64,000 bases of DNA from Candidatus Kaiserbacteria bacterium (GTDB taxonomy: Bacteria > Patescibacteriota > Minisyncoccia > Phycocordibacterales > UBA2100): positions 320,210-384,209 of the forward strand of contig CP070993.1 of assembly GCA_017134395.1 (NCBI GenBank), in the 5' to 3' direction. Both the position numbers and the translations under genes were made by a program. Of this stretch, positions 1,817 to 55,627 are shown one piece after another. Numbering within the stretch: position 1 is the stretch's first letter; every line of letters begins with the position of its first letter. The notes under the pieces are model-generated. The model saw only the letters and a list, made by a program, of their open reading frames with translations, did not search any database and was not told where the DNA came from.

Positions 1817-2815
1817 CTAGGCTACTTTTTTGCGTGCAATAGCCATATGCACGGCATCAATAATAGCACTGGTGTCCAACTGATAATGTTCAATAAGTTC
1901 TTCTGGTGTTCCTGATTGTCCAAATAAATCATCAACTCCTACAAACTCTATCGGCACCGGCTCATTCTTTGCTAATACTTCAGCAACTGCTCCGCCAAGC
2001 CCGCCTGAGGCTTGATGCTCTTCTAGGGTAACCACCGCGCCAACTTCACGCGCGAGCGCAACAATAGTTTCATCATCAAGGGGTTTAATAGTATGGCTAT
2101 TAAGCACTACTGTGCCAATATCTTTTTCTTCTAATTTTTTTGCTGCAAGTAGCGCGCCGTGAAGAAGCGGGCCGCAGCCAATTATTGCAACATCAACGTT
2201 TTTACCTCGCCACATTTCATACGCCTTCCCTATTTCAAATGAAGTTTCTTCGGTCGTCATCACCGGAGTCTTTTCGCGTGCAAGTCGCATGTACGTTGGA
2301 GCCTTACTGCTAGCAATTTCTATAGTTGCCTTTTTAGCCTCGTTTGTATCACAAGGTGAAATAACTTCAATGCGTGGTATCACACGCATAATTGCCATGT
2401 CTTCAATTGCCTGATGCGTCCCTCCGTCAGGGCCAACAGAAACACCTGCATGACTTCCAATTATTTTCACAGGTTGATTATTGTAACAGATGGTTGTTCG
2501 TATTTGTTCCCAATTCCGCCCGGGAGAAAACATGGCGTATGATGTAATGAAAGGAACTTTTCCCAATGCCGCCAACCCACTTGCAACACTTGCAAGATTT
2601 TGTTCGGCGACACCAATTTGTACAAACCGCTCTGGGTACTTCTTAGCGAATGCATCCATGCGAGTTGAGCCGGTCAAATCAGCACACAGTCCAACTACGT
2701 TTTCATCAGTGTCCGCCGCTTCTACAAGACCCTCTCCAAACCCATTGCGCAGTGGTACCTGTTCTACGTCGGTATTAAATACGTTCTCATTTATGTTTTG
2801 TTTTTTATTTAACAT
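1817..2815 (-). CDS. transketolase, C-terminal subunit (pyrimidine-binding + C-terminal domains of a split transketolase)
   Basis: 332 aa. Motifs FGEGLVEAA..VVGLCADLTGSTRMDAFAKKYPERFVQIGVAEQNLASVASGLA are typical of the transketolase central and C-terminal domains. It sits immediately downstream of the N-terminal-subunit gene, separated by a 3-nt gap. Confidence 0.85.
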   Translation of the reverse strand: MLNKKQNINENVFNTDVEQVPLRNGFGEGLVEAADTDENVVGLCADLTGSTRMDAFAKKYPERFVQIGVAEQNLASVASGLAALGKVPFITSYAMFSPGRNWEQIRTTICYNNQPVKIIGSHAGVSVGPDGGTHQAIEDMAIMRVIPRIEVISPCDTNEAKKATIEIASSKAPTYMRLAREKTPVMTTEETSFEIGKAYEMWRGKNVDVAIIGCGPLLHGALLAAKKLEEKDIGTVVLNSHTIKPLDDETIVALAREVGAVVTLEEHQASGGLGGAVAEVLAKNEPVPIEFVGVDDLFGQSGTPEELIEHYQLDTSAIIDAVHMAIARKKVA

Positions 2816-2818
2816 ATA

Positions 2819-3685
2819 TTAATCGCAATCATGACACACTATCCTGTCGCCAAGCGTACGAAGTTCCTTTAGTGCCATATCTCCTTCTTCCTTACTCGGT
2901 GGTTTACCGTGCCACTGGTAATCTCGTTCAAATTCTTTCACTCCTTTTCCAGGAATAGTATGGGCGATTAATACCGAAGGCTTATCGTTTACCGCTTTCG
3001 CTTCTCCAATTGCGTCGTTAAGTGCAGTGAAATTATGTCCATCCACCTCGATAACATGCCAACCAAATGATTCCCATTTGTCTTTTAAAGGTTCAAGAGG
3101 CATGACATCCCATGTGTACCCGTCTATCTGAATACCATTCCTATCAACAATACCTATAAGGTTCTGTAGTTTTTCGCGCCCAGCGAGCATCGCACTCTCC
3201 CAAATAATTCCACAGTCTAATTCGCCGTCACCCATCAACGCATATATGTAGCTCTCTGTACTTCTCCCACTATTCATCCTTTGAGCTAATGCCATTCCCA
3301 CTGCTTGTCCGAGCCCACTCCCAAGAGGGCCAGAGCTGGCCTCTATACCAGGTAGATATTCTCTATGTGGATGCCCCTGTAGACGTGAATGCAATTTTCG
3401 TAAAGTCTTTAACTCTTCAACAGGAAAATAACCAGAACGTGCCATAGCGGCATACTGTACGGGGCAAATGTGACCGTTGGAAAGTACGAGCCTGTCTCTC
3501 TCTTCCCATTCTGGGTTTTTTGGATCATGTTTTAATGTATTGAAATACAGCAGTGTAAATACGTCTGCCATTCCAAGTGGTCCTGCAGTGTGTCCACTTC
3601 CTGCTTCAAGAAGCATTTCTATAATATCTTTACGAATAGTGTTCGCTGTCTGCTCAAGCTCTAAAACTTTTTCATTAGTTAACAT
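2819..3685 (-). CDS. transketolase, N-terminal (TPP-binding) subunit
   Basis: 288 aa. GSGHTAGPLGMADVFTLLYF...DRLVLSNGHICPVQYAAMA...MGDGELDCG is the thiamine-diphosphate-binding motif set of transketolase. Confidence 0.85.
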   Translation of the reverse strand: MLTNEKVLELEQTANTIRKDIIEMLLEAGSGHTAGPLGMADVFTLLYFNTLKHDPKNPEWEERDRLVLSNGHICPVQYAAMARSGYFPVEELKTLRKLHSRLQGHPHREYLPGIEASSGPLGSGLGQAVGMALAQRMNSGRSTESYIYALMGDGELDCGIIWESAMLAGREKLQNLIGIVDRNGIQIDGYTWDVMPLEPLKDKWESFGWHVIEVDGHNFTALNDAIGEAKAVNDKPSVLIAHTIPGKGVKEFERDYQWHGKPPSKEEGDMALKELRTLGDRIVCHDCD

Positions 3686-6351: not shown

Positions 6352-7002
6352 ATGTTCTTCCATGTACTGAATCGTGGTGTAGAAAAACGACCTATAGTCC
6401 ACGATGATATTGACCGAATACGTTTTGTTCATGACCTTTTCATATTCAACAACAAGTGCTCTGTAGACCCAAATCATAGGCTTAAAGAAAATCCATTTGG
6501 TGACCAAGGTAGAGACCCTTTAGTGCATATACATGCGTGGTGTCTTATGGATAATCACTATCACCTACTTCTCTCTCCTGTCGATAATGATGTCGCAAAT
6601 ATTTCGCTTTTCATGAAAAAGTTAAATATGGGGTATGCAAAGTACTTTAATGAAAAATATGAGCGCTCGGGCTACCTGTGGCAAGGAAAGTACAAAAAGA
6701 TAGAAATAGAAAGAGATGCACATTTTCTCTATATCCCTTTCTATATCCATCTTAACCCGCTTGACTACACCCATCCAAATTGGCGCAACGGATCTATTAA
6801 GAATCTAAAAAAGATGTTGTCTGATTTATCTTCATATCGCTGGAGTAGTTACCTAGATTATATGGGCACCAAAAATTTTCCTTCTGTTATAGAAGAACAA
6901 ACATTACATGAAGTGCTCGGTTCGTCATCTAGTCAGAAAAAGCAAATTGCTCAAATTGTTACACAAGCAGATGTAGCTACTCTCTCGAACAACTTCGAAT
7001 AA
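6352..7002 (+). CDS. HuH-family Y1 transposase, REP-associated tyrosine transposase (RAYT) / IS200-like TnpA family
   Basis: 216 aa. The N-terminus is FHVLNRG.EKRPIV, the HuH motif is CLMDNHYHLLLSP, and the C-terminal region is GYAKYFNEKYERSGYLWQGKYK (catalytic-Tyr WQ..Y region). It is flanked on both sides by the family-A palindromes. Confidence 0.65.
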   Translation: MFFHVLNRGVEKRPIVHDDIDRIRFVHDLFIFNNKCSVDPNHRLKENPFGDQGRDPLVHIHAWCLMDNHYHLLLSPVDNDVANISLFMKKLNMGYAKYFNEKYERSGYLWQGKYKKIEIERDAHFLYIPFYIHLNPLDYTHPNWRNGSIKNLKKMLSDLSSYRWSSYLDYMGTKNFPSVIEEQTLHEVLGSSSSQKKQIAQIVTQADVATLSNNFE

Positions 7003-7095: not shown

Positions 7096-7135
7096 TTAAT
7101 TAAATTTAATTTAATTTAATCTTATCTTATCTTAT
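7096..7135. repeat. pentanucleotide tandem repeats (TTAAT/TAAAT)x5 followed by (CTTAT)x3
   Basis: ttaat taaat ttaat ttaat ttaat cttat cttat cttat. The last CTTAT unit overlaps the stop codon (7132..7134) and last codon of the giant gene. Confidence 0.7.
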
Positions 7136-10100
7136 ATTGTTGAGTCGGTAGTGGTTGCTGTTTCTTCTGCAGGTGTGTCTGTTGCCACTGGTTCAATGAC
7201 TTCGTCCACTGTGTCCTCTACCACTTCCTCTTCTACTGTTTCTTCTACTACAGGTTCTGTTGTGTCGTTTACGACTGGTTCAGTACTTGTGGCTGTAGTG
7301 TCTTCTACAACTTCTTCTTCTACGATAACGGGGTCTGTACTGGTTGCTGTGTCGTCTTCAATGACTACGGCAGGAGTTGAAGTGGCTGTGTCTTCTACTA
7401 CTGGTTCTTCAGTTGGTGTTCCTGTTCCCACTATCACGGTGCGTTCGATTGTTGCTGTTTGTTCGTTGGTGTCTGTAGCACTGTAGGTAATGGTGTGGGT
7501 GGCATCTGTGGTGGTGTCTATATCTATAGTGGTGACTGCTTCACCGTTGAGGGTGAGTGTGATGCTTAAGTCGTTACCGTCTGCGTCTTGTGCGGTGATA
7601 CCGAGGTCGCTGTAGTTAGCGTTAAGAGCAATTTCAGCGGGGTTGGTTCCGATGAGGGTGAGGGTTGGTGGGGTTGAAGTAGTTGTTGATGTAGCTTCTG
7701 TTTGAGTGGTTGCTGAAGCGACACCGGCGAGCTGTGCCTCTACCGCTACGAGTCGCTCTTCAAGTGCCGCAATTTGTATGTCCTTAGAACTCTGCCAGTC
7801 AATGAGTTCGGCGATCCTTTTTGTATTCTCCTGCACAATCACCCACAATTCTTTAATTGCCTGTATTAAATACAAAGGTAAGTCAGAAAGGTTAGTATCA
7901 AAATATTCTGTTCCATTAATAGTTGTTGTGCCTACCATTTCAGGGAACGTAACCTTTAATTCTTGTGCAATGAAACCAGAAATACGGCGACTTCGTGTTT
8001 CTTCATCATATCCAGTCAATTCGTTATAGTTATAAGTTACTGGACGTAATTCACTAATTCTTTCGAGGGTAGTAGTATCCTCTGTCGATAACTCGGTAAT
8101 GTTTTCCTTTAGGCGTCGATCGGAATAGTTCGTCCATGCAGTATACCCATTTGCTGCAGGCTGGCCGTTTAATTGAAGTTTATACGTTGGGTTTGTTACA
8201 CCAATACCGACTTCGCCAGCGGGGTCGATAACTATTGCATCATTAGTTATACCACTACCGTAACTATTTGAAGTTCCAAAATGCAATTCCGTTCCAGAAG
8301 GAGTTATCTTTGCTGCTATTCTTGCTAAAGGTACAGCGCTAGATCCAGACGCACCAGCAAAATCAATACTATTGAAATAATTTGCTGTATATGGACTACT
8401 TATTCTTAATACACCATCACTGGTACCAGTAAAAGATGAGATAGATGTTCCTTCTACATGCAATTTCGTGTCGGGAGTATCAATACCAATACCGACGTTG
8501 CCACCTTCAAGAATACGCATGCGTTCGGTTAGTGAACCTGCTGAAGGAGTAGTTGAGAATGTTAAATACCCTTGGTAGTTTGATGAAGCAGTACTTCCTA
8601 CACCCATAGTTATGCTTGAAAGGTCTTGGCGAGCCACTGTACCGGTTGTTGTGATGGTATTTTTAAGAACGGGACTCACACCAGAAACGGCAAAGTTAAC
8701 GGTTGAGTCATTAGAACCAAGGTTAACTGAGAGCTTTGATTCTGGCGTTGTGGTGCCGATACCGACGTTGCCAAGTAGATAGTTGTTTCCTGTACCATCT
8801 ATGGAAAGAGCACCATCTAATTGTAAGTCACCAGCGCGAGATACACTTCCGACAACTGTTGCAGCACCATCTCCAAATTTTATCCCTCCACCAGTAGAGC
8901 CTTCGTCCCAGTTTAAATACACACTTCCCCCTGCGGTAATTGGGTTTATGACGGTATTTACATTGTCTGTCAGTCGAAGTACGTGTGTACCGGCGTCCGC
9001 GATAATGCTTCCGGTAACGTTTATATTTCCTTGTACATCAAGTACTTGCGATGGTGTCGTCGTACCAATACCCACACTACCTTGTACTGCCAAACCATTG
9101 TCGAGCTCGGTTGTGTAGTATGAATCTCCAATTGAAACTCCACCTATTACACCTACGTGACTTCTATCGTATACGCCACTACCTGGGTCGAGCACAATAC
9201 CCGTAGCAAAAGACACTTGTAGTTGTTGATACGTATTTGCTGTCCATGCACCTGCAGTTCTGTAAATTCCGTACCCGGAAGCAGTATGCCAGTAAATACC
9301 TTGACTTCCATCAGTCGTGACATTGTCACCAAAGGTTATTTGCCCTGTCGTTGATAAGTCTAAGTCTCTCGCGGGAGTTGCCGTACCAATACCGACGTTA
9401 TCAGTCCCCGTTGCTAAGTACACATCAGTACCGCCATCAGTCCACCCACCGCCAGATGATGCCGAGAAGTCAGTCCATGCGCCTGCGTTGTTTTTATATT
9501 GAATAGTTCCTGCGTTGTCGCGGAAACCGTAGCCAGTAGTGCCCGTGGTATCGCCCCAGTTGATGTAGCTTGAGGCTGTAAGACCGATGTTGCCTGCAAC
9601 ATCGAGTTTGTGGTCTGGTGTTGAATCTCCAATACCGACGTTGCCACCAACAAGATGCATAATATTTGCCGCGCCTGCACTGAAGAACAGACGGTCAGTA
9701 GCATGATCGTATTGAATACGTCCTATGTCATTATCACTCGGATCACCAAACAAAACCGAACCAACACTTGATGCAGTATTGAAAATGGTCAAGCCAGTAT
9801 TGCCGCTACTTTCAAGAACAAGTTCGTCGCCATTTGAAATTGGACTTCCTACCGCACCAGCGGAACTGTCATAAATCCATACTTTTGCTGAAGGCGTCGT
9901 GGTGCCGATGCCGACGTTGCCTGCATCGTTTACATACAGTTCAGGGTTTCCTGAGATAGTGCCTCCTCCCCATATACCAATACCACCATTTGAACCATCG
10001 CCGTAACCACCAATCGCTCCAGAATATACATCTGATGATCCTTGGAAGGAAATAATCTGCCCGCTCCCTGCCACGGAAACATTCTGTGTATTAGTGTCGA

Positions 10101-13100
10101 GAGTTAGTAGATTTACTATAGAACCATTACTTCCATTTTCTACCAATTGCAATTTCGTAGCTGGGGTGGTGGTTCCGATACCGACGTTGCCGGTGTTGGT
10201 AAAGGTAAGTACATCACCTGCACCATCAATAAAGAGTCGCCCATCATCACCAGTAGGGTTATATAACCAAGCATTACTACCTGAGCTATCACGTGGTCCT
10301 GCAAGGAAGCCTGCACGCGAATCATTACCCGAACGTACAACACCGATAACATCAAGTTTTTCAGTTGGTGTCGTGGTTCCGATGCCGACGTTGCCTGCGG
10401 TGTAGCTGATGTCGGGGCTGTTGTGTGTCCAGAGACCGTTACCGCCGTCAATGCGGGAGCCGGTGAAAGAAGTATATGCACTCCAGCCATTTATATCTTT
10501 ATTGCTTGCACTCGATTGATGGACGTAGACTTCGAAATAATCTGTTGTTCCATTTGCATCTACTACAACACTCACTTGATTCGTTCTAAAAGTACCTGTC
10601 GAAGTCTTATAGTCACTGCTATATAATGCCCCATTCTTGTAAATTGCCATATATGTCTGGTCACTATCTGAGACACTCTCGAATCTTGTTTTTGTTGTTA
10701 ACAAATATTTACCAGCAACCGTTGGGGTAAATCTATCACTCGCAAAATCAGAGTTAGTATCAAAGTGCTCTGTTGTCCAAGCCACCTTTGTCCATGTATT
10801 TCCTGGGATGCTTTGAGCCACATTGTTTCGATGTACCGAGAAGGATGGTGAAATACCGTCCCCTGCGGTGGCAAAGGAGAGGTTGCCACTGGCGTCAGTG
10901 GTGAGGAACTGTCCTGCGGTACCGTCAGCAGTTGGGAGGGTGAAGGTGGTGTTGCTGGTGATGGCGTCTGGTGCCTTCAGAGCAACATAGTTGTCACCGT
11001 TAGCTTCGAGCTCTTCAAAGCGTACTTCACCGGTGTTGCCTGCGGAGGTGCCGAATGGATTAAGTGAAAGTGCTGATGCTGATTCATCAAAGAATAGCGG
11101 TGCGTCACTTGTTGTTCCTCCAATGGCAAGGTCGTCGGTGAGTGAGGTGAGGTAGGTGGTGGTGCCACCGTCGGTGAAGAGTGCGGCACCACTGCCTACT
11201 GCACTACCATTCCAGTACAAACTACCACTAACGTTGTAGAGTGCGTTAACGGTAGTTGCAGGAGTCGTTGAGGCAAGTGAGAGAGCGCCATTAACTGAGA
11301 GTTTGGTGGTGGGGGTGGTGGTGCCGATACCGACGTTGCCTGAGGAGTTGATAGTCAAGTCGCTACCTGAACCAGTTCCAAATTGCACGGCGTATTCTCC
11401 ACGTATAACCATAGCGTTCGTAAGTGCATCGCTAAAGACTTGACCTGGTGTCGCGTAACCAGAATACCCAACCAAAGCGTTTGAATTGTTTTTATATGTT
11501 ATGTACCCAGCAAGATCTGAACCTTGGAAAATAGCGAGGTCAGGGTTGTTTTTATAAAGATGTAATAGCGCTTGAGGGGATGTGGTGCCGATACCGACGT
11601 TGCCTGTACTGTCAATCACCAAATCTGAAGCTGAGTTCGTCCATAAATGTAGGTCACCAGTTGTTTGGTGAACACCTATATTCGCTTCTTGATCTCCGGC
11701 ATTATCGAAGAACGCTAGACCTGGGTAACCACCAGGTGTACCGATTCTTACTGCGTCACCACTACTTATTCCCGTTTTTACACTTAGACCCCAACCAGCC
11801 AACGTAGATGTGCCAATTCCCACATTCCCATTGCTGACATCTGCGAACAACGCTGGTGTACTTGAGGTGCCGACGCGGAAGTCACCCCAGACGTCCAGTT
11901 TAGATGCGGGGGAAGAGGTGCCGATACCAACGTTGCCTGATGAAAGTGTTGATTGAGTACCATCAAGACCTGTACCGTAAATGAGATTTCCAATGACTAA
12001 TTGATTATTGGCTGTTGCGCTCGGTACAGCCACGTTGTAACCAATAGAAATGTTATTTGCACCACTTGTTATTTGGTTTTGTGCTCCAGATAAAGTTGCT
12101 GCACCAATAATAGTGTTATTTGAACCAGTAGTAACTCCATATCCTGATTTGAATCCGAGGAAGGTGTTGTAGTTGCTGCTTGTTGCTGCTGAATACCCAG
12201 ACTGTGTACCAACGTACGTTCCTCCTTCGTTATAATAGTTACTTAAACCTGCTGCTGCTGCTGCACCGACAGCTACTACACTATCTGGTGATGTATTGAA
12301 TCTTAAGGTTCCAATTGCATTACTTAAACCACCAATAGCAACGTTTGAAGAACCGTCAATATTTCCGATACCAGTATAGTATCCAAGAAACACATTTGCG
12401 TTACCAGTAGTGTTGTTAAGCCCTGCATTTGCTCCAAGAAATGAATTGGCAAACCCAGTGGTGTTGTTCATTCCTGATTGTACTCCAATAGCAATACTGC
12501 TCCCACCAATATATGCTGCTCCGCCCGCAGTTGAACTTCGCAGTGCGCGATACCCGATAGCTACGTTGCTTGCCGTTGATGTGGCATTCTCGAGCGCCTG
12601 ATAACCAACCGCAACATTCTTGGTTCCAGTTGTAAGTGAGGAAAGAGCACTCGTTCCTAAAGCGGTGTTTTCATTTCCTGTATGTGTTGTATTGCCAGTG
12701 TTACCAACAAATAGTGAACCCGTAGTTGTGCTTGCTTGCAATATTGTGTTTCCCTCTAACTTGTAACCGTTGCTAGTGTTTATGTAACCAAGTACATCTA
12801 GTTTGGAGCTAGGATTAGTAGTGCCGATGCCGACGTTGCCTGCGCTTGTGACAACCATTTGGTCATTAACACCATTTGTTCTGAATGAGAATCCGTTGCC
12901 AACGTTATCGTAAATTATCCTACCCATAACAGCACTGTCTGTGTCACCAAAATCTAAGAATGATTTTGTAGTAGGTGAGCTAATTATAGAAACTATAGTG
13001 TCACCGCTTCTTTGGAATGAAGCCACCGTTTGTGCAGAAGCAGTTATTGCTGTTCCACTTTGGACGACCTGCAGATTAGTACTTGGTGAGTCTGTTCCGA

Positions 13101-16100
13101 TACCGACGTTGCCTTGATTCATTATTACGTCTCCATCTGACTGAACAAGCAGACTGTCTTGCCCGGCTCCAGCTTGAACAGTAAACGGATAAACGCTTCC
13201 AGCTGTCAAATCTCTAAGGCTAAAATTACCGCCCAGAGAATGAACAAACCATTCCTGATTAGATGCATCACTTTCTTTAAACACTATACCTGGATCATTT
13301 CGCGTAATTCTAAGTTTTTGGTTTGAATCTAATCCATAAGTTGATGCGTCATTTATTGTCAGGGCTGTGCCAACTTCGAGTAATGCACCGCTACCAGATA
13401 TATCTAACTTTGAAGACGGACTCGCTGTACCTATACCCACATTCCCACTACTTACATCAGTAAACAATGCAGGAGTGCTTGAGGTTCCGACACGTAAGTC
13501 GCCCCAGACGTCGAGGGTTGATGCAGGTGAAGTGGTGCCGATACCGACGTTGCCTGTACTTCCGTCTAGCATCAGTAGCCCAGGATAAGACGTTGATGGA
13601 CTGAATGCTATATCACTAGAACCAGAAGCTCCTCTAACAACAAGATTTTTTGTATTTAAATCTGAAAGTCCGGTGTCTCCTACTTCAAAAGAGAAACTTT
13701 GCTGATTACCCGATGTAGTTGAGCCACCAAACAACTGTACTAGACTTGAATCTAAACCTATGCCGTCATAACCAAATTTGCTTACACCAGCAACATGCAG
13801 TAGTGAGTCAGGTGTTGTGGTGCCAATACCGACGTTGCCTGTATTACCCTCCACGAAGAGCATACCGCTACCAACATTTAAGTCAGTGTCGGAATCAAGC
13901 GTAGCGTTAATATCACTCGTGCCTCCAGGCTGGAAAACAATGTTACCTGGCGGCTGTAAGGTAGCAGTACCATCTAATTTCACTTCAGCATTTGCTCCAA
14001 CTATCGTTTGGTTGCCAGAATTGTATCCAATTAGGTTAACCGAGGTTCCAGTCGTCAATCTCGATTTCAAGTATTGATTATTATCTATCTGGATATTACC
14101 TCCCACAACTTCGAGTTTTTGTTCAGGAGTTGTTGTACCGATACCGACGTTGCCTGAAGTATTATTGATATTTAGATTACCAGCATCAAGTGCATTGTTC
14201 CCTCCAATAGATGTATAGCCATCCTCGGCCAAAAGATAGCTTGTTGTATCGTCATCAGAAATAGTGATTACTGCATTGTTATCAGAACTATTAAACAGTG
14301 CCACCGCATTGTAAGTATTAGAGTAGACTCTTAGAGGATTAGCTACTGCCGTTTCGTAAATAGAAAGTGTTGCGTCTGGGGTTGTGGTACCAATACCGAC
14401 GTTGCCGGAGGAATCAATGGTTAGCCTCTCTGTTGCAGTAGTCCAAAGTGATAAATCGTTTGCATTATTATCGTATACGATTCGTCCCATTGTTTGACTT
14501 CCGCTATCACCAAAAAAGATACTAGTGTCTGATGACGTTCCACCCACAATAGATATTCCGGCTGGTCCAATGCCTTCAACAACCAACTCATCCGCACTAC
14601 TAGATACAGCCGGAGCTCCTGATACTGCGCTTGATATGTGCAACTTCCCCAGTGGCGTCGTAGTACCAATACCGACGTTACCCGTACTGGTAATTCGCAG
14701 GCGTTCTGCACGATTAGAACTCGTAATAGTACCTGTGGTGAACGCGAGGCCGTATGCTGCTCCTGTTGCACTGTCTGAGATTGCGCTGATTTCAGCTCCG
14801 ATACCATCTGCATAGGTACCTGTGTAGCTCGCATCATTTGTGATGAAGTTAAGAGAACCTATTCCATCTCCTGTGGTGCGCGCTCCTTGTGTAGAAATGG
14901 AGAGTGCTGTTCCTGTGAGAATTGAGTCTGGATTGGTGGTGCCGATACCAATATTTCCACTCTCATTAACCGTTAAGCGGTCTTGTAGTGTTCCACCTGA
15001 ATCTGAAACCTGTAGCTTGAAATCGCCACCACTACGTTGGAATGCTGCCTTATTTGTAGAGTTATAGGTTATTTGAAATTGTGGCTGGTCTGTCGATAAT
15101 ATCTCTAGGGCAGTGTCTGGACTTGCTGTCCCAATACCAACATTACCTGAGCTTCCTTCGACGAATAATGCATTGACTTCACCAACTCCTTCTACTCTAA
15201 AATCAATGTCTGCTCCGAGTTCGTTGAAAGTGTATGAAGTGGCTAATGCTCTTGAGACCTCTACACCGCCAGCATAGGTTCGTATACCATTAAGGCTATC
15301 CTGGATATAAAAACCTTCTCCGGTAGCTAATGCGTTATTACCTATCCATCCACCATTTACGTCACCTGCAATTATTATACCTTCATGTACTGAATCTGAA
15401 TCTTTAAATCGAGCGAGAACACCGCCGTTTTCGTTATGAACATCAAGTTTGTATGAAGCAGAAGTTGTACCAATACTTACGTTGCCATTTGGGAAAAATA
15501 CAGTACCAACATTATTCGCAGCTCCCATTACTTGAGTAAGATTGGTTCCTGAGTAAATACCAAATCCATTATTTGTATCCCAATTGTGAGATATCACGGA
15601 ACGATAGCTGCTAGGACTGCTAGCATTTGTGAGCTTTACACTAGGATCACTATTGTAAATATGCAATGTCTCTTCTGGCGTCGTGGTACCTATACCAATG
15701 TTGCCAGAGAAGAAACCGTCAATGGTGTACAAATCTTGCCATTGCTTAGATGCAGTACCCAGATCATTTGCATCATTAAAATATGGAGAGAAATCGCTTG
15801 TTAAAAATTGATACTCCCAATTATCATTTTGTCTAACAAATATCTGCCCGTCTCGTATATCAAAGAGATCGCCGCTATCTTTACCGAAGTTACCACCATT
15901 AACACCATCGTATGCATAGATAGTACCCGTAGCTGCACCAAGATCTCCTCCGACATTTAATCCCGTTGCTATAATTACGTCGCCTTCTACATCCAACTTC
16001 GCTCCTGGACCTGTCGTTCCGATACCTACATTACCTTCTATAATCGCACCGTTAGATGGAGCGACAACATTGTTATAGCCAGAACCTACTCGTAATGCTC

Positions 16101-19100
16101 CCTGCACATCAAGTTTGTTAGAAGGAGTTGGATCACCAATACCAATCATATTCGCACTTGAGTCAATGTAGAGCGTATTGTTGTCGAAATCCAAATCAGC
16201 ACTGTTGGTGTCGAGATCGAAGGTGGTGGTGGCGTCTACGGTGAGTGCATCCTTGAACTCAGTGAAGTCGAGTGTGTCTGCGTCGATGAGACTTGCATCA
16301 ATAGTGGTGGTTGAGACGACACCTGAGCTGTTGGTGGTGAGGATGCCTCCGGTGAGTGCAGCAAACTGTACAGAGCCGGTGGTGGTGAGTTGGTTGGCAG
16401 GGGTGGTGGTGCCGATGCCGATGTTGCCTGTGTTTGTTATTCTGAATCTCTCTGCACCACCAGTTTGAACGTTGAAGTCTCCTCCAGTTGCTACTAAATT
16501 AACGAGTCCAGTTCCTGTTTTTAACTGCAATGCAGTAAATCCTCCGTCAGTTTCTATTACAGCAGGTGTACCGGCTGATGCTTGGTACACGATAAGTTTT
16601 TGACTTGGGCTCGCCGTCCCAATACCTACATTCCCACTACTTACATCGGTAAACAACGCTGGTGTGCTTGAAGTACCTACACGTAGGTCACCCCAGACGT
16701 CGAGTTTTGATGCTGGCGTCGTTGTGCCGATTCCGACATTTCCTGCACCTGTTACATATAAATCATCGCTGTTAACGGCAAATACGCCATCTGTGGCGTC
16801 ATGAATAAATACCGTTCCTCCGTCAGTATTCAAATACAAAGAACTGGCAACGCCGGACCCAATTGCTTGAATTTCATTATTATCTATAGCGATAAAATCA
16901 GTATTTGAAGCACCAACCCTTAATGCTCCACCTCCCGAGGAACTGACATCGGTTGAATCCCATACTACAAGTTTTGCCTCTGGTGTTGAAGTACCGATAC
17001 CGACGTTGCCTGAAGTATCTATAGATAGTCTTTCAGTATTCCCAACCATCAAATCTAGTTGATGAGATGATTGTGTACCAAATTTTGCTGCTTGAGGTGT
17101 TCCTGAATCAAACCATCCAGATAATTTTGTCGCTGCATCGTCACCATAAATGGTAACGGCTCCACCATAAGTACCTCCTGCGATATCGAGATTGGTTCTG
17201 AAGTTCATGTTTCCAGGTGTACTAGTACCTATACCGACGTTGCCGGCGCTCGTTATTCTTAACCTCTCAGATGTATCGGATGCACCGGCTGATCCAGTGT
17301 GTAAAGAAACATAATCTTGTCTGAAAACTGCATTTAGAGCAGAGCTAGTGGCTGTTTGATTATTATTTCCCAATTTAGACGAATAAATTCTTATATCGTC
17401 TCCATAGTTTCCCGTATATGTGGAGCCTATCCAAGCTCTGGATGCATTTGTTCCTACCCCCCCTCGTGGAAAGCGAATCCAGCCGCCTTCCTTCCCGTAA
17501 GCTCCACCAGCTGCAATGTCAAAAATATTTGTGGAGTCATCTGCACCTCCAACCAATATACCAAAGGGAGTTCCTCCTGTTATTGTTGTATTCTCACTGT
17601 AGAATCCTGTGGTTGCTAATACCTCCCCAACTACTGCAAGGTTTGCTACAGGACTAGTAGTGCCGATGCCGACGTTGCCTGAATCTGTTATCCGCACCGC
17701 TTCAGTTGCTCCATCTGGGAAAAATCCTATTTTCTTTGAAGCTGTACCTGCATATATATTTACGTCACCAGTAACACTAGTTCCTGAATGCCCGATAATT
17801 AAGTTTTCCGTTGCATCATATCCGATAAGATTTCTATCAAAACCACTAGCTAAACTCCCCTTTAAGAATTGATTATTATCTAAAAGGATATCGCCTTCAC
17901 TAACATGTAATTTTTCAGCGGGTGTAGTAGTTCCAATACCGACGTTGCCAGAGGCATCAATCCTTAACGCCTCGCTACCACTTGTGGAAAAAGCAAGCGA
18001 ATCATTTGCGTGTTCATAATCTATGAGACCTGGACTTCCACTTGTGTCAGAGAAAGTAAGTACTGAATTCCCCGTATCTCCTGCAACATTGGCTTTAATA
18101 TCAACCTGTGTATATCCAGATCCAGAAGTTCTTTCAAACGTAGAGACTAGTTGATCTGCACTTGTTACATGCAGTTTCCCAGAGGGCGTAGTAGTACCAA
18201 TACCTACGTTGCCAGTGTTATCAAGTGTAAGTCGAGGTGTTGATGTCAAATCAGTACCATCAGTAATACGGAATGTATCGTCTACATTGTAATATCCTAC
18301 TGAGTAATCTGTACCACTTCCGAATCGTAGTGGTGTGTTGTTATTTACACGCAGGAATCCACTACCCCACTGCAAAAGATCTGCGCCATTGCTTTTTATA
18401 TAACCATTGACTAAAGCGTTTACATTCAAATATCCTGTCGCATCAACATAAAATTCGCCATAACGTGTTGAACGGTCATCGTACCCGTATACTCGCAAAC
18501 CGTTGTCATCTGCGTTTTGGGCAATCGTCAGACCGAGTGCTGGAGTGGCAGTGTTGATACCAACATTCCCACTACTCACATCGGTAAACAATGTAGGAGT
18601 GCTTGAAGTACCTACACGTAGATCACCCCAGACGTCGAGTGCTGATGCGGGTGAAGTGGTGCCGATACCTACGTTGCCTGAAGTATCTATTGTTAATCTT
18701 GCACCAGCATTTGTTATTAATTGAAGAGGATGACTAGTCTGTGTTCCAATCTGCCCAGCTGACGCTTGTGCCTGTACTTTTACCTTTGCACCTCCTGAGC
18801 GCTCTGCAAGAATATCTGCATTTCCTGTATCAAACACATGTAAAGTACCGTCTGGAGTAGTCGTTCCAATACCGACGTTACCGCCTGTAAGGCGAATGTA
18901 CTCCGTACCACGGTTACTTATTGTCGTATCAACACCAAACGCATAGACTGATCCGAAGTTAATGGTTGAACCATCGTACCCTACAAATCCATAGTTATTA
19001 GTTGCACTTCCTGTTCCAAATTCAATTCCTGCAGGACGTCCTGTTGAGTTTGAGTGTACTCCAACAAGCACTGTTGTTCCTGGGTTTCGTACATCCAGCT

Positions 19101-22100
19101 TATATTCTGAATCTGGTGTTGCTTGAATACCTACACTCCCATTAGAATCAATAATAAACGGAGTTGTATCGCTTGCTGAATCGTTCACAACAAAACTGTT
19201 GCCCGTACCTGTGTTAGTGATGGAGAGTACTTCAGTACCATCTGCTGCTATGTCAGTTGAAGCATCGAGTGCAAGCGCATCCTTAAATTCAGTGAAATCG
19301 AGCGTGTCGGCAGTAACATCAGCACCGTCAACGGTGGTGGTTGAGACAACACCTGAGCTGTTGGTGGTGAGGATGCCTCCGGTGAGTGCGCTAAGAGTAA
19401 GTGCTGATTCAAGTATGGTGTTGCCGGTGATACGTGCGGTGCCTGAGACATCTAGTTTGTATGATGGCGCAGCGTTTCCAAGACCTAACTGCCCAGTATT
19501 ATCAATATAAACAGTCTGAGTGTTATTGGAACCTCCTCCACGCAACTCTAACTTATGTGAATTAGAGTTCTCACCGATGTATGTATTTTGGTTACTAAAA
19601 TAGATATGAGAATTATCGGGACTCAACCCTATAGAGCCAGCAACATCGAGCGCATACGATGGGGTGCTGTCGCCAATCCCCACATTTCCACTACTCACAT
19701 CAGCAAACAATGCGGGAGTACTTGAGGTACCGACGCGTAGGTCGCCCCAGACGTCGAGTGCTGATGCGGGTGAAGTAGTGCCGATACCGACGTTGCCACC
19801 ATCTGCTATCACAATTCCGTCGCCAGCACCTTCACCCCATACATTGAGGTAACCAAAATTAGAGGCTTCGTTGTATCCGATAACAAGGGCGTCATCTGCA
19901 ATTGCGCTTTGTCCTATTGCTATGAAGTCAACATCGTTATCATCTGCATTAGTATTAAAGAAGCTTGCTATGTTTACCGTTCCACTTGAATCAGCTTCTA
20001 CATGCAATTTGGAGTTTGGCGAGGTGGTGCCAATACCGACGTTGCCTCCGGTTGATGGATTGATGTAAGTTTCTGCTCCTTCCAACCATAAATTTTTGTA
20101 AGAAGATGCGCCACGATCGTATGCCTGAACAAATCCATATCCGTTATATCCTAATTCGACTCCAGCACCGGAGGCTGTCATTGACGGCGCTCCAGTTGCA
20201 CGAAGATTTCCGGATACATCTAGAGTTGCCACAGGCGACGCCACCCCCACCCCAACTCTATTCGTTGAACTATCAATCACGAGAGTGTTTGCATCAAAGT
20301 TGAGATCAGCAGAGTTGGTGTCGAGGTCGAAGGTGGTGGTGGCGTCTACGGTGAGTGCATCTTTGAATTCAGTGAAGTCGAGTGTGTCTGCGTCGATGAC
20401 ACTTGCGTCGATAGTGGTGGTTGAGACGACACCTGAGCTGTTGGTGGTGAGGATGCCTCCGGTGAGTGCGCTGAGAGTAAGTGCTGATTCAAGTATGGTG
20501 TTGCCGGTGATACGTGCGGTGCCTGCTACGGTGAGTTTTTCAGCGGGAGTGGTGGTGCCGATACCGACGTTACCTAAATTATTTATCACAATCCCTTTAC
20601 TTGAACCATCAAAACCGTCTCTAGTAATTTTTAAGTTGTCTTCAGAATAATCAACCCCAATGAAACCGTATCTGGGTGTGCCATCAGCATCAGATGCCAT
20701 TCTGATGAATGAGTTGTCTGTATCATTTGTACTCAACCCAATATCTGCAATTCCGGTTGTTGAAAGTACATCTAATTTCCTACCTGGACTACCTGTACCA
20801 ATCCCAACCCTGTTCGTTGAACTGTCAATGTACAAGGTGTTTGAGTCGAAGTTTAAGTCAGCGGAGTTGGTGTCGAGATCGAAAGTTGTGGTGGTATCTA
20901 CCACTAGTGAGTCTGAGAGCTGTGCGAAGTTGAGTGAGTCGTTAACGATGTCTAAGGTGACGGCTGCTGATTCAGTACCAGAATTAGAAACCGTAAAGAA
21001 AGCGTTGCCTGCGTCTGCAAGCGTTGCGAGATAATTACCTGTTGTGTGTGTACCGAGTGTGATGAGGTTGTTAAGTGTGGTGGTTCCTGTGCCTCCGTTG
21101 GTTACAGGAAGAACTCCAGTGACCTCAGTGGTGAGATCAACCGAGGTACCAAGTGTTGTTTCGAGTGATCCTGAATTGAGAGTAAGTCCAGTACCAGTGA
21201 AGTCGGTGATTGTTTCTGAGTTGGTGCGGAATCCACCAGAGGCTCGTGTGACACCAACAACGTCGAGTGGATATGATGGAGTTACTCCTATACCAAAATT
21301 ACCAGATGAATCGAAACGAGCCACCTCTGTATTTGACGTACTAAACAATATCGCGCCAGCTTCCCTGTTGATAATAGCTAGATTTAGTCCGTTTCCTTGA
21401 ATAAGGCTACCGTCAGCAGCCAAAGTGCCTGTTGTTCCGTTAGTAAGTTTTAATTCGGGAAATGAAGTTGCATTGATGTGTAGCCCTGTTCCTCCACCAG
21501 CAAGAGCAGGTGCCGCGGTACCAATACCCACATTTCCTGCTATTTCTATGTCCCCATCACTTTGTGCTACCAACAATTCTGTACCTGCAGAATTTTCCAA
21601 ACGGATTGAACCACCACTTACTATTGGCCTGATATTTGAAAGCCACGCTATGTCAGCACCGTCATTCAATTGTAAATCTCCATCGATATGCAACTTCGAT
21701 CCAGGTGTTGTGGTACCAATACCGACGTTGCCTGCTCCATTAATGATCATTTGTGTATCGAGAGTTCCGTTCGAAGTGGAAAATCGCAAATCGCCGTACT
21801 CTGCACCAGATTCATTTTCAGAACTTATACGAGCACCTATATAATTTTCAGGACTTGCATCATTATTATCCCAATTCTGAAAATCTAAACGTCCATAATC
21901 TGCTCCCGCACTTTGCTTTGCGCCTCCAATGGTAACGGTGCGTTGTACATCAGCACTTCCCCCTCTATCTGCAACTATGTTCCCACCGTAAATATGTAGT
22001 TTCTCACTTGGTGAAGTAGTACCGATACCGATGTTGCCATCCACACCAACAGTCAGTACGCGACTACCACTGAAATCATCAGCTACAAAAATAGGTGCAG

Positions 22101-25851: not shown

Positions 25852-26904
25852 CTATTCAGAAGAGTAGTTGAATTCTGATCCAGGTAGTATGTCTCCGTAC
25901 TTATCTTGCATCATTTCGATGAAAGTATTGTCTTCAAATAAGTTGCTCACAGCATCAAGACCAGAGAGACCAAACAGGTATAGATATGCTCCAGTAGAGA
26001 TAAGAATGAGCGCTAAAATTAGCATGCCTATAACTCCAACAATTGGAAATGAACGCTTTGCGGGTTTACTCTGAATGAAGTAGCTTTCCTCTCGTTCCCT
26101 TTTTTGTACCCCGCCTTCCCGAGATGGTATATTTCTAGGCGTGGTTTGAGTAGTTATCGGTGGAACTGCTCTAGGAGTGGAGACAGGACGAATATCGGGG
26201 TTCATTTGCTTAATTGGAGGGCGTTCACTTAATATATCACCAGACGCATAGGTTTGGGCTTCATTAAATGCAGTTTCTTTTTTTACAGAAGGAATTTCTG
26301 GATTACTTTCAGCTACGTAGCGTACGTTGAAATTGATGTCTCCAGGATCAATATCAGTTTGGATATTTACAGCAACTCCAGTAGCATCCTTTCCAACTGC
26401 TCCCTTCTCAGTACTATAACCTTCAGTGCGTACACCACTGGACTGTGCCTGAACTTCAGCCAGTAGACCATCGTTGTGTTTTTTGTGAGCGATAAGTGAG
26501 TCCTTACCTACAAACCAACGGCGACCTACTTTTCGTGCTTCTAATTCACCACTTCTGGCAAGCTGACCAATATAATCTTGTGCGTAGCCAGTAACAGCAG
26601 CAGCGCGAGATGTTGCGATGTACTCTGTGCCGTCATACTTGAATGTGTCGTCACGAACATTCCCTACCTTCATACCAAGTGCGCTCTTGCCTTGCTCATT
26701 TTTATTTTTTGTATCAGCTTCAACACCATTTTCTTGGTACCGCTTCAACCCATTTTCATCGACATACCAATGCCCAGACACTCGTCGACACTCAATTTTA
26801 TCTTCCCTGCAAAGCTGGCCAATATAGTCCTTCGAATAACCACTCAGCTCTGAAGCACGAGTAGTTGATATTAAAGTGTCATCACCGATAGTAACGTCTT
26901 CCAT
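25852..26904 (-). CDS. membrane protein with two tandem excisionase-type HTH-like modules, a low-complexity linker and a C-terminal TM anchor. It is a 'stub' paralog of the giant protein N-terminus.
   Basis: 350 aa. The modules are RASELSGYSKDYIGQLCREDKIECRRVSGHWYV and SRAAAVTGYAQDYIGQLARSGELEARKVGRRWFV. Both match the giant protein's N-terminal module and the HTH_17 pattern (A..G.s...I..l.R.G.l...rvGrrW.v). The TM helix is IVGVIGMLILALILISTGAYLYLFGL near the C-terminus. Confidence 0.6.
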   Translation of the reverse strand: MEDVTIGDDTLISTTRASELSGYSKDYIGQLCREDKIECRRVSGHWYVDENGLKRYQENGVEADTKNKNEQGKSALGMKVGNVRDDTFKYDGTEYIATSRAAAVTGYAQDYIGQLARSGELEARKVGRRWFVGKDSLIAHKKHNDGLLAEVQAQSSGVRTEGYSTEKGAVGKDATGVAVNIQTDIDPGDINFNVRYVAESNPEIPSVKKETAFNEAQTYASGDILSERPPIKQMNPDIRPVSTPRAVPPITTQTTPRNIPSREGGVQKREREESYFIQSKPAKRSFPIVGVIGMLILALILISTGAYLYLFGLSGLDAVSNLFEDNTFIEMMQDKYGDILPGSEFNYSSE

Positions 26905-35889: not shown

Positions 35890-35971
35890 TCAGTGATTAT
35901 AGCAACGTCATATCCTCTCGCAATCTTAGATAATAATAGTATTATAGAAGTTCATTCAACACGTCTCATTT

Positions 35972-37054: not shown

Positions 37055-37075
37055 TTGCGATAATATATAAAGATT

Positions 37076-39170: not shown

Positions 39171-39182
39171 ATATAAATTTAT

Positions 39183-40190: not shown

Positions 40191-40277
40191 ACTTCTCACA
40201 TGAGTATTTTGTGGGTCAAAAACAAAAATATAGAAGGTTATCTGTATGTTTACGTCGTATTCTAAAAAACGCCTAAA

Positions 40278-41549: not shown

Positions 41550-41598
41550 GCTTATATTGTTTTAAGGAAACAAAAAGTATTATAATCCACCCCTAAAT

Positions 41599-42471: not shown

Positions 42472-42474
42472 GTT

Positions 42475-44096: not shown

Positions 44097-44138
44097 AAGT
44101 TAGCCTACTAAACTTCAAATCGTTCATAGACATTTACA

Positions 44139-45392: not shown

Positions 45393-45398
45393 TCATCT

Positions 45399-46508: not shown

Positions 46509-46516
46509 AGTCTGGT

Positions 46517-48965: not shown

Positions 48966-48966
48966 G

Positions 48967-55570: not shown

Positions 55571-55627
55571 AACGATAAGTATATCGTACTTCCTTTGTGC
55601 ATATATAGTATTAATCCCCGCCGTGCT

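What the first reader, a model, noticed from the sequence alone, without database searches (positions are those of the whole stretch)
10440..10880. C1q/TNF-like jelly-roll domain inside the giant protein
The segment SFSVHRNNVAQSIPGNTWTKVAWTTEHFDTNSDFASDRFTPTVAGKYLLTTKTRFES...QTYMAIYKNGALYSS...NQVSVVVDANGTTDYFEVYVHQ follows the C1q-domain topology pattern (FSA/V..., ..F..v..N.G..fd...g.FtaPv.G.Y.f......., ..l..ng..........s..l.L..gD.v.v.l). It is preceded by a phage-fibre-like 'FTLPTADGTAGQFLTTDASGNLSF' motif. C1q-like heads are receptor-binding tips in BclA-type and phage fibres. An internal copy suggests a side-branch or knob.
Basis: partly seen in the sequence, partly recalled or inferred. 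Interest (0 to 1): 0.5.

Follow-up and report, generated by a model that had tools for sequence, protein, structure and literature searches.

The report
C1q-like knob inside giant surface fibre
A 137-residue stretch inside a 5,970-residue surface-fibre protein of a tiny Kaiserbacteria (CPR) bacterium has the C1q/TNF jelly-roll fold, and it belongs to a very large, mostly unannotated family that usually forms the tip of phage tail fibres, so it is real but a new member of a known kind.

Summary
The quoted peptide is encoded on the minus strand, inside one uninterrupted ORF (7132-25044, 5,970 aa). The domain spans aa 4731-4867 (window 10444-10854).

It has no direct Pfam C1q hit. Other evidence places it in the C1q superfamily:
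- A profile of its homologues finds C1QL1/2/3 and collagen X NC1 among PDB sequences (E = 1e-4).
- It is 40% identical to a sister domain that does pass Pfam C1q.

The family has about 42,000 clusters at 50% identity. In short, mostly phage, proteins the domain is the C-terminal tip. In large fibre proteins one to ten internal copies are common. The closest relatives, including a 2,549-aa orthologue, keep a single internal copy.

The host gene is chromosomal, in Candidatus Kaiserbacteria. The protein has an HTH-like N-terminus, one transmembrane helix, a long repeat shaft, the C1q-like domain, a further 770-aa fibre, and a Peptidase_S74 chaperone with an intact SDxxxK motif.

Best reading: a trimeric, phage-fibre-like cell adhesin with a C1q-like knob near its variable distal end. 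Novelty: a new member of a known kind. Interest is moderate to low.

The parts
7132..25044 (-). Giant ORF, 5,970 aa plus stop: a membrane-anchored, phage-tail-fibre-like surface protein
   Evidence: Single uninterrupted ORF. PHROG tail-fibre families hit repeatedly, e.g. phrog_9942 at 7e-89 with 12 stretches. There are 32 GNVGIGT motifs. The flanking genes are housekeeping genes, not phage genes.
24874..25032 (-). N-terminal HTH_17-like domain (aa ~5-57), presumed cytoplasmic
   Evidence: 38% identical (E=1e-11) to each of the two HTH_17 repeats of the neighbouring ORF 25852-26904. The same N-terminus occurs in P0157, which hits HTH_17 at 3.5e-4, and in orthologue L086. There is no direct Pfam hit on this copy.
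24424..24480 (-). Only hydrophobic, TM-like segment of the protein (aa 189-207)
   Evidence: Kyte-Doolittle scan: these are the only 19-residue windows above 1.6 in 5,970 aa. It is preceded by a K/R-rich stretch. The N-in orientation is inferred.
10945..24423 (-). Extracellular shaft (aa 208-4700): a T/N/A-rich repeat region followed by dozens of GNVGIGTTTPxxKL modules
   Evidence: Sequence, motif positions and PHROG tail-fibre hits. The shaft is much shorter in orthologue L086, whose whole protein is 2,549 aa.
10873..10944 (-). FTLPTADGTAGQFLTTDASGNLSF beta-hairpin motif (aa 4701-4724) leading into the head
   Evidence: Occurs once in the protein. It forms two strands in the model. It is co-conserved with the domain in about 30% of the short homologues and in orthologue L086. 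It was the only part matched in the genome-contig scan.
10444..10854 (-). C1q/TNF-like jelly-roll domain (aa 4731-4867): the finding
8125..10443 (-). Distal fibre (aa 4868-5640). It restarts with the conserved junction GGNGLWTHNSPDISYTAGNVGIGTTTP
   Evidence: The junction is conserved in orthologue L086 and in P0126, P0152 and P0157. The N-termini of stand-alone proteins P0031 and P0060 align to aa 4856-4905. This is the most divergent part between orthologues, at 33% identity.
7933..8124 (-). Peptidase_S74 intramolecular chaperone / autoprotease domain (aa 5641-5704). The catalytic motif is S5641-D-R-R-L-K5646
   Evidence: Pfam PF13884 at 1.1e-14, 54.9 bits against a cut-off of 22. The SDxxxK motif is present. 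The motif and its function are described in PMC10769870.
7135..7932 (-). C-terminal region: helical segment, Bact_surface_Ig-like domain (aa 5795-5872) and acidic T/E/D/V-rich tail (aa 5873-5970)
   Evidence: Pfam PF16403 at 2.4e-8. The tail has 30 D/E and 0 K/R in 98 aa. A similar tail occurs in L086, P0126, P0152 and P0157. Its release after S74 cleavage is predicted, not shown.

Best explanation
The segment is a divergent but genuine C1q/TNF-superfamily jelly-roll domain. It is built into a 5,970-aa cell-surface fibre of a Candidatus Kaiserbacteria (CPR/Patescibacteria) cell.

Proposed mechanism:
1. The protein is anchored in the membrane by one N-terminal TM helix, with a small HTH-like domain inside the cell.
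2. Three chains run in parallel as a phage-tail-fibre-like shaft.
3. At aa 4731-4867 the three chains each contribute one jelly-roll to a compact C1q-like trimeric knob.
4. The chain enters and leaves this fold at the same (base) face. The knob must therefore sit as a lateral or apical bulge, or a hinge, and not as an in-line bead.
5. The fibre restarts from a conserved junction, runs about 770 aa further, and ends in a Peptidase_S74 chaperone. That domain helps trimer folding and then cuts itself off at Ser5641.
6. The knob acts as a trimer-registration node and, most likely, as a lectin-like or receptor-binding head. It would help the episymbiont attach to its host cell, as the same domain does at the tip of phage tail fibres.

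Shown here: the fold, homology, domain boundaries, family distribution, gene context, the S74 motif, and conservation of the architecture in relatives.

Inferred only: trimerisation, knob geometry, S74 cleavage and the adhesive role.
For: Fold and homology:
- The family profile hits PDB gC1q sequences: C1QL1 at E=1.2e-4, also C1QL2/3 and collagen X.
- The AF2 model has pLDDT 89.9.
- Foldseek: phi812 spike knob 1.7e-8, C1QL2 and Caprin-2 with TMt about 0.8.
- The domain is 40% identical (E=5e-23) to P0126 copy 4, which scores 46 bits on Pfam C1q against a cut-off of 23.7.
- The relative P0130 is named 'C1q-like domain-containing protein' by NCBI.

Use as a fibre head:
- 119 of the 120 best short homologues end with the domain.
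- At least 535 relatives occur in viral contigs. One phage locus reads portal / 1,066-aa tail fibre ending in this domain / scaffold / major head.

Trimer context:
- Peptidase_S74 scores 54.9 bits with SDxxxK intact. S74 is described as a trimer-specific chaperone/protease (PMC10769870).
- A natural protein with three tandem copies is modelled in an arrangement matching single-chain C1q, adiponectin and TNF trimers over about 455-480 columns, TMt 0.66-0.69.
- Inter-copy linkers of only 6-10 aa fit with both termini lying on one face.

Cellular, not phage:
- The flanking genes are GAPDH, RpiB, Rpe, transketolase, GatB, Obg and SecA.
- GatB is 100% identical to a Candidatus Kaiserbacteria protein on a 688-kb contig.

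Conserved architecture:
- Orthologue L086 (2,549 aa) has the same HTH N-terminus, TLP motif, single internal domain, S74 and acidic tail. L087, L088, L148, L149 and P0157 also carry internal copies in giant ORFs.
- Identity between orthologues falls from 80% (stalk) to 50% (domain) to 33% (distal part). This is the pattern expected for a variable, host-facing end.
Against: - The copy itself has no Pfam C1q or BclA_C hit, even at E<=1.
- The strict PROSITE-type C1q pattern, recalled from memory, is not met.
- All structure evidence comes from single-chain predictions. No trimer was modelled and no coordinates could be inspected.
- The three-copy model has a low pTM of 0.40.
- In S74-type fibres the known ligand site lies just before the cleavage site. 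That would be about 770 aa away from this domain, so the knob may not be the main binding site.
- Family members carry 4, 5, 7, 8 or 10 tandem copies. These numbers do not map simply onto trimers.
- The orthologue identity gradient rests on one pair of sequences.
Confidence: 0.7

Rival explanations
1. The domain is a purely structural trimerisation or registration node, or a hinge, in the fibre. It has no ligand-binding role. Host or ligand recognition resides only in the distal tip, which is exposed when the S74 chaperone is released.
For: S74 fibres characterised so far bind ligand in a cleft next to the cleavage site (PMC10769870). The domain lies about 770 aa upstream of Ser5641. Its core motifs (E.FDTN, F.PTVAGKY, YKNG, DANGTTDYFE) are very strongly conserved across the family, which is what a folding nucleus would show. 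gC1q/NC1 domains are known trimer-nucleating modules (established knowledge).
Against: In phages the same domain is the terminal head of the tail fibre, and the terminal head is where receptor binding is expected. Loops and several strands differ strongly between orthologues (50% identity against 80% for the stalk). TNF-like tips of Bdellovibrio fibres bind GlcNAc.
Confidence: 0.2
2. The domain is a monomeric beta-sandwich 'bead' or spacer, used like an Ig-like domain, in a protein that is not trimeric at this point.
For: Family members carry 2-10 consecutive copies with short linkers, including numbers not divisible by three. The single-chain model of the three-copy protein has a low pTM of 0.40. 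No multimer prediction could be run.
Against: All close structural relatives are obligate trimers: gC1q, TNF, BclA and phage knobs. The three-copy model nevertheless superposes on single-chain trimers at TMt 0.66-0.69. The same polypeptide carries a trimer-dependent S74 chaperone. The flanking sequence is phage-tail-fibre-like.
Confidence: 0.1
3. The gene is a prophage tail-fibre gene, or an assembly chimera that joined a complete fibre gene ending in a C1q-like head to a second fibre gene through shared GNVGIGTTTP repeats.
For: The stand-alone homologues end exactly where the domain ends. The segment after the domain resembles the N-termini of some stand-alone proteins. An IS200-like transposase gene lies next to the 3' end. 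The gene is highly repetitive.
Against: No phage genes flank the gene; housekeeping genes lie on both sides. The same domain-to-junction arrangement (GSRIDGGNGLWT.NSPDI.YTAGNVGIGTTT) is found in independent assemblies and samples: L086, L087, L148, L149, P0126, P0152 and P0157. The reading frame is continuous over 17.9 kb. An ancient evolutionary fusion of modules remains likely, but that is not an artefact.
Confidence: 0.03

Closest known systems
Globular C1q domains of animal C1q-family proteins (C1QL1-3, Caprin-2, cerebellin, C1q A/B/C, collagen VIII/X NC1; Pfam PF00386)
   Different: Only 14-21% identity. This copy has no direct Pfam hit. There is no collagen Gly-X-Y stalk. It is internal, not C-terminal. 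It has family-specific motifs (E.FDTN, DANGTTDYFE). The host is bacterial.
Phage receptor-binding and knob domains with the TNF/C1q-like fold (S. aureus phage phi812 central spike knob 9eul; cyanophage A4 and A-1(L) tail fibres 9k09/8ke9; PRD1 P5; mycobacteriophage TM4 gp23 RBD), and the 'C1q-like' putative RBPs of metagenomic phages (PMC7468147)
   Different: Here the gene is chromosomal in a CPR bacterium. The domain is about 1,100 aa from the C-terminus, not at the tip.
Bdellovibrio bacteriovorus MAT (mosaic adhesive trimeric) fibres (Caulton et al. 2024, PMC10769870)
   Different: In MATs the S74 domain and the TNF-like tip are alternative C-terminal endings of proteins about 1,000 aa long, which have a signal peptide and a conserved beta-rich N-domain. 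Here both modules are in one 5,970-aa chain, the C1q-like domain is internal, and the anchor is an HTH-like domain plus a TM helix.
BclA and F-BclA C-terminal domains of Bacillus exosporium and endospore appendages (PF18573)
   Different: No collagen-like region and no Pfam BclA_C hit on this copy. It is structurally closer to animal gC1q than to BclA. It is internal.
RefSeq 'C1q-like domain-containing protein' of Hyphomicrobium sp. DY-1 (WP_414463365.1 = P0130, 1,922 aa) and similar multi-copy fibre proteins
   Same: Same domain family: five copies detected by the family HMM. All copies are internal. A C-terminal Peptidase_S74 is present, and Pfam C1q scores 143 bits.
   Different: It has several copies, each preceded by a different Cys-containing module. 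It lacks the HTH/TM anchor, comes from a different phylum, and has few GNVGIGTTTP repeats.

Membership tests
C1q domain (Pfam PF00386; C1q/TNF superfamily) | Scores above the Pfam PF00386 gathering threshold | tested here: not met
   No C1q hit at E<=1 for the 260-aa segment or the 1,370-aa C-terminal piece. Only 8 of 121 close homologues give weak hits, best 1.2e-3. Sister copies do pass: P0126 copy 4 scores 46.1 bits and P0130 scores 143.5 bits against a cut-off of 23.7. This copy is 40% identical (E=5e-23) to P0126 copy 4.
C1q domain (Pfam PF00386; C1q/TNF superfamily) | Profile-level sequence homology to solved gC1q domains | tested here: met
   The family profile against PDB sequences gives C1QL1 at 1.2e-4, C1QL3 at 1.7e-4, C1QL2 at 1.6e-3, zebrafish C1qA at 4.7e-4 and collagen X at 0.085. 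The alignment covers about 100 residues.
C1q domain (Pfam PF00386; C1q/TNF superfamily) | Compact jelly-roll beta-sandwich superposable on gC1q | tested here: met
C1q domain (Pfam PF00386; C1q/TNF superfamily) | C1q signature pattern F-x5-[ND]-x4-[FYWL]-x6-F-x5-G-x-Y-x-F-x4-[CVA] (PROSITE-type pattern, recalled from memory) | tested here: not met
   The strict pattern is absent. Only the core F-x5-G-x-Y-x-L (FTPTVAGKYLL, aa 4772) and KNG are present. 117 of the 120 short homologues share that relaxed core.
C1q domain (Pfam PF00386; C1q/TNF superfamily) | Assembles as a trimer around a three-fold axis | tested here: inconclusive
   No multimer prediction was available. Indirect support: the natural three-copy relative P0151 is modelled in an arrangement matching single-chain C1q, adiponectin and TNF trimers (TMt 0.66-0.69 over about 455-480 columns), but its pTM is only 0.40. 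An S74 trimer chaperone lies in the same chain.
C1q domain (Pfam PF00386; C1q/TNF superfamily) | Classical architecture: C-terminal head after a collagen-like Gly-X-Y stalk | tested here: not met
   There is no run of five or more G-X-Y repeats anywhere in the protein. The domain is followed by 1,102 further residues.
BclA C-terminal domain (PF18573) | Pfam BclA_C hit and a collagen-like region upstream | tested here: not met
Phage tail-fibre C-terminal C1q-like head family (unnamed; represented in phrog_13989 and phrog_11660) | Significant sequence match to the family | tested here: met
   phrog_13989 at 2e-11 and phrog_11660 at 1.1e-8. 4,603 homologues, best 2.5e-32. At least 535 relatives in IMG/VR.
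Phage tail-fibre C-terminal C1q-like head family (unnamed; represented in phrog_13989 and phrog_11660) | The domain forms the extreme C-terminus of the protein, in a phage genome | tested here: not met
   It is internal here. The gene is flanked by chromosomal housekeeping genes. 119 of the 120 short homologues are C-terminal, but large members commonly have internal copies.
Peptidase_S74 fibres (intramolecular chaperone auto-processing; includes Bdellovibrio S74-type MAT fibres) | S74 domain above the Pfam threshold, with the catalytic SDxxxK motif | tested here: met
   PF13884 scores 54.9 bits against a cut-off of 22. S5641-D-R-R-L-K5646 is present. The motif definition is in PMC10769870. 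Cleavage itself cannot be tested here.
Bdellovibrio MAT fibre family | Signal peptide followed by the conserved ~130-aa beta-rich N-terminal domain; about 1,000 aa long | tested here: not met
   The N-terminus is an HTH_17-like domain followed by a single TM segment at aa 189-207. The length is 5,970 aa. No sequence comparison with the MAT N-domain was run, because no MAT sequences were at hand.

The most novel reading that the evidence does not exclude
The C1q-like head is internal in sequence but terminal in space. Both chain ends leave the jelly-roll at its base, so the 4,500-aa shaft and the 770-aa distal fibre would emerge from the same face. That would make the knob the apex or branch point of a bent or forked fibre. 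This design is conserved in giant adhesins of CPR episymbionts. More broadly, the domain belongs to a prokaryote/phage C1q-like family of more than 40,000 clusters that is barely captured by Pfam. The family includes natural single-chain pseudo-trimers made of three tandem copies, and it could be the reservoir from which animal C1q/TNF heads derive.
Probability: 0.25. Interest if true: 0.6.

Novelty: new member of a known kind. Interest (0 to 1): 0.35.

Why it matters
- It assigns a structure and a plausible role to one module of a giant, otherwise unannotated surface protein. The organism is an ultra-small CPR bacterium whose way of attaching to its host is unknown.
- It shows that this protein is built like a phage tail fibre or a Bdellovibrio MAT adhesin.
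- It shows that a very large C1q-like family in phages and bacteria goes mostly unannotated by Pfam and NCBIfam.
- Internal and tandem copies of the domain are common in that family. This bears on how C1q/TNF-type trimers are built and how they evolved.
- The domain fold itself, and its use on fibres, are already known.

Tried and rejected
- Direct Pfam, NCBIfam and single-sequence PDB searches of the segment gave nothing meaningful. Profile and fold methods were needed.
- The exact-sequence look-up of the window's GatB found no contig. Identity came instead from the homologue search.
- The genome-contig scan found only the TLPxxDGxxGQ motif in unrelated MAGs. It did not find the source genome or the domain.
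- The afdb50 fold library was unavailable.
- Searches for other copies of the domain in the giant protein and in all six frames of the window found none.
- I considered that the conserved DANGTTDYFE loop corresponds to the C1QL Ca2+-binding Asp loop. I rejected this because in the profile alignment it aligns to the C1q 'L-x-x-G-D-x-V' strand region. A metal site of its own remains untested.
- The prophage hypothesis is rejected on gene context.
- The assembly-chimera hypothesis is rejected because the junction recurs in independent assemblies.
- Literature searches for C1q-like domains in CPR or giant genes returned nothing specific.
- I considered modelling our domain as an artificial 3x concatemer. 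The natural three-copy relative was used instead.
Full report
**1. The observation**

The window's largest ORF runs on the minus strand from 25044 to 7132 (5,970 aa, GTG start).
- SFSVHRNN...YFEVYVHQ is aa 4734-4843 (window 10516-10845).
- FTLPTADGTAGQFLTTDASGNLSF is aa 4701-4724 (window 10873-10944). This is just upstream in the protein, and just outside the stated coordinate range.

The plus-strand translation of the stated range is full of stops. The finding is therefore a minus-strand feature.

**2. Is it a C1q/TNF-like domain?**

Direct searches fail:
- Pfam at E<=1 gives no C1q or BclA_C hit.
- NCBIfam gives nothing.
- A single-sequence search of PDB sequences gives only noise.

The segment nevertheless has thousands of homologues: 4,603 with E<=1e-3, the best at 2.5e-32.
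- A profile of the 120 best (alignment A1) finds solved gC1q domains: C1QL1 at 1.2e-4, C1QL3, C1QL2, zebrafish C1qA and collagen X NC1. The alignment runs from the F-x5-G-x-Y core through the KNG turn to the last strand.
- AlphaFold2 with this alignment gives a confident all-beta model. Mean pLDDT is 89.9, and 94-98 across the domain.
- Foldseek against the PDB gives the phage phi812 central-spike knob (1.7e-8), then C1QL2, Caprin-2 C1q and C1QL1/3 with TM about 0.8.

There is also a transitive sequence link. The domain is 40% identical (E=5e-23) to copy 4 of protein P0126. That copy scores 46 bits on Pfam C1q, against a cut-off of 23.7. Another relative, P0130 from Hyphomicrobium, scores 143 bits and is named 'C1q-like domain-containing protein' in RefSeq.

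The strict PROSITE-type C1q pattern, recalled from memory, is not matched. Only the core FTPTVAGKYLL and KNG are present.

Conclusion: this is a divergent but genuine member of the C1q/TNF superfamily.

**3. Boundaries and copy number**

Stand-alone homologues align to aa 4731/4733-4865/4868 and stop there. An HMM built from them matches aa 4729-4868 (envelope coordinates; 2e-56), and nothing else in the protein or in any frame of the window. About 30% of the short homologues also carry the TLPxxDGxxGQ hairpin directly upstream. That motif occurs only once in the giant protein.

**4. The family**

A full HMMER scan of 1.84 billion cluster representatives finds 42,167 proteins at E<=1e-3 and 19,216 at E<=1e-10.

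*Short proteins.*
- Median length is 212 aa. The domain is C-terminal in 119 of 120.
- The family is abundant in viral contigs: at least 535 confirmed in the first 600 candidates.
- In one phage locus (L021) the gene order is portal, a 1,066-aa PHROG tail-fibre protein ending in this domain, scaffold, then major head.
- C1q-like putative receptor-binding proteins have been noted in phage metagenomic islands (PMC7468147).

*Large proteins.*
- The top-scoring representatives are 1,000-3,500 aa long and carry 2-10 internal copies. Many have a C-terminal Peptidase_S74.
- An internal position is therefore not unusual for this family.

**5. The host protein and its relatives**

The gene sits among chromosomal housekeeping genes: PfkB kinase, split transketolase, Rpe, RpiB, GAPDH, GatB, Obg, SecA and a polysaccharide-synthesis cluster. 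GatB is 100% identical to a Candidatus Kaiserbacteria protein on a 688-kb contig. This is a CPR/Patescibacteria chromosome, not a prophage.

The protein, from N- to C-terminus:
1. An HTH_17-like domain. It is 38% identical to each of two HTH_17 repeats in the neighbouring ORF.
2. A single hydrophobic segment at aa 189-207.
3. A shaft of T/N/A-rich repeats and 32 GNVGIGT modules, with strong PHROG tail-fibre hits.
4. The hairpin motif and the C1q-like domain.
5. A conserved restart junction (GGNGLWTHNSPDISYTAGNVGIGTTTP) and about 770 aa more fibre.
6. Peptidase_S74 (54.9 bits) with the catalytic motif S5641-DRRL-K5646.
7. A helical stretch, a Bact_surface_Ig-like domain and an acidic tail.

The closest relatives in metagenomes are all giant ORFs with a single internal copy: L086, L087, L088, L148 and L149. 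L086 is a clear but much shorter orthologue of 2,549 aa. It has the same N-terminus (VSKHLILDNKKYLS...), the TLP motif, a domain at aa 1593-1733, S74 (SDRRLK) and an acidic tail. P0157 (3,099 aa), P0126 and P0152 show the same domain-to-junction arrangement.

Between the window protein and L086, identity falls along the chain: 80% in the stalk before the hairpin, 57% in the hairpin, 50% in the domain and 33% downstream. The distal end, starting at the C1q-like domain, is the variable part, as in phage fibres. This rests on one pair of sequences.

**6. How it most likely works**

*Shown:* the fold, homology, boundaries, context and the conserved architecture.

*Inferred:* the points below.

(a) Trimer.
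- All close structural relatives are obligate trimers.
- The chain carries an S74 chaperone/protease, which is described as ensuring productive trimerisation (PMC10769870).
- As an indirect test, I modelled a natural relative with three tandem copies (P0151, 548 aa). The domains are confident (pLDDT 86) but pTM is low (0.40).
- The best PDB matches of that model are the engineered single-chain trimers of cerebellin, C1q, adiponectin and APRIL/BAFF. They align over about 455-480 columns with TMt 0.66-0.69. The three copies are thus placed in a C1q-like pseudo-trimer.
- This supports, moderately, that the family keeps the trimer geometry.

(b) Topology.
- In the C1q/TNF fold the first and last strands are antiparallel neighbours, so both termini lie at the base of the trimer (established knowledge).
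- The near-complete superposition on Caprin-2 and the 6-10-aa linkers between tandem copies agree with this.
- An internal copy must therefore form a knob from whose base the fibre both arrives and departs. That means a lateral or apical bulge, hinge or fork, not an in-line bead.

(c) Function.
- By analogy with the phage proteins that end in this domain, and with Bdellovibrio MAT fibres whose TNF-like tips bind GlcNAc, the knob is most likely a lectin-like or receptor-binding head and a trimer-registration node.
- The whole protein would be an adhesin of an episymbiotic CPR cell.

(d) Maturation.
- S74 would cleave at Ser5641, releasing the last 330 residues.

Overall confidence in this picture is about 0.7. 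Confidence in the fold and homology alone is above 0.95.

**7. Rivals**

- *A purely structural node without ligand binding (about 0.2).* Known S74 fibres bind ligand next to the cleavage site, which favours this. The terminal position of the domain in phage fibres and its loop variability argue against it.
- *A monomeric spacer bead (about 0.1).* Tandem copy numbers not divisible by three and the low pTM favour this. All structural relatives are trimers, and argues against it.
- *A prophage gene or an assembly chimera (about 0.03).* Gene context excludes the first. Recurrence of the junction in independent assemblies excludes the second. An ancient fusion of a head-terminated fibre with a second fibre module is likely, but that is evolution, not artefact.

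**8. Comparison with what is known, and novelty**

The domain works like a gC1q, BclA or phage-RBP head and is homologous to them. It fails the classical membership features of the animal C1q family (Pfam threshold for this copy, collagen stalk, C-terminal position) and of BclA.

The whole protein resembles Bdellovibrio MAT fibres. It differs in combining S74 and a TNF/C1q-like module in one very long chain, and in using an HTH/TM anchor.

C1q-like heads on bacterial and phage fibres are documented, and RefSeq already names relatives 'C1q-like domain-containing protein'. This is therefore a new member of a known kind.

Modestly new points are the size of the largely unannotated family, how common internal and tandem copies are, and the conserved single internal knob in giant CPR adhesins. 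Interest: 0.35.

Noticed in passing
Related proteins P0151, P0156, P0158, P0169, P0384, P0386, P0388, P0390 (about 526-548 aa): Natural proteins with exactly three tandem C1q-like domains joined by 6-10-aa linkers. The AF2 model of P0151 superposes on engineered single-chain C1q, adiponectin and TNF trimers (TMt 0.66-0.69), although its pTM is only 0.40. These are possible natural single-chain pseudo-trimers.
   Followed up: partly
window 25852-26904 (-): The ORF next to the giant gene (350 aa) has two tandem HTH_17-like domains and a C-terminal TM helix. Each repeat is 38% identical to aa 5-57 of the giant protein. The same HTH-like N-terminus heads other giant CPR fibre proteins (P0157, L086, L149). 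It is unclear what a 'DNA-binding' fold does at the cytoplasmic end of membrane-anchored surface proteins.
   Followed up: partly
L086 (CESG01074096.1), ORF containing 10001-10513: The orthologue of the giant protein is only about 2,549 aa, against 5,970 aa here. Both ends and the C1q-like/S74 module are conserved, so shaft length varies more than two-fold between relatives.
   Followed up: partly
window 6352-7002 (+): An IS200-like (Y1_Tnp) transposase ORF lies immediately beside the 3' end of the giant gene.
   Followed up: no
window ~22645-23757 (-), aa ~430-800 of the giant protein: A T/N/A-rich low-complexity repeat region (NATSTNF / ATTTIT-type units). It coincides with a local GC-skew excursion of +0.19 in the 22001-24000 bin. 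Its structure is unknown.
   Followed up: no
window 53834-55735 (-): A 633-aa protein with weak TrwB/TraG-type coupling-protein and HerA/DUF87 ATPase hits. It may be a type-IV-secretion-like or DNA-translocation ATPase in this small genome.
   Followed up: no
window 33658-50603: An O-antigen-ligase-like/TPR protein, followed by a cell-surface polysaccharide cluster: GDP-mannose dehydratase, epimerase, DegT aminotransferase and a flippase. This is surface-glycan biosynthesis close to the giant adhesin gene.
   Followed up: no
Related proteins P0121, P0127, P0129 (2,000-2,600 aa): Proteins with 4-8 consecutive C1q-like domains, followed by about 1,400 aa of a different repeated module of roughly 190 aa (recurring 'LVKEI.L....S.V.F.GLD...DG.Y' units). 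This architecture is unrelated to the GNVGIGTTTP fibres.
   Followed up: no
window 1817-3685 (-): Transketolase is encoded as two separate ORFs, an N-terminal half (2819-3685) and a C-terminal half (1817-2815).
   Followed up: no
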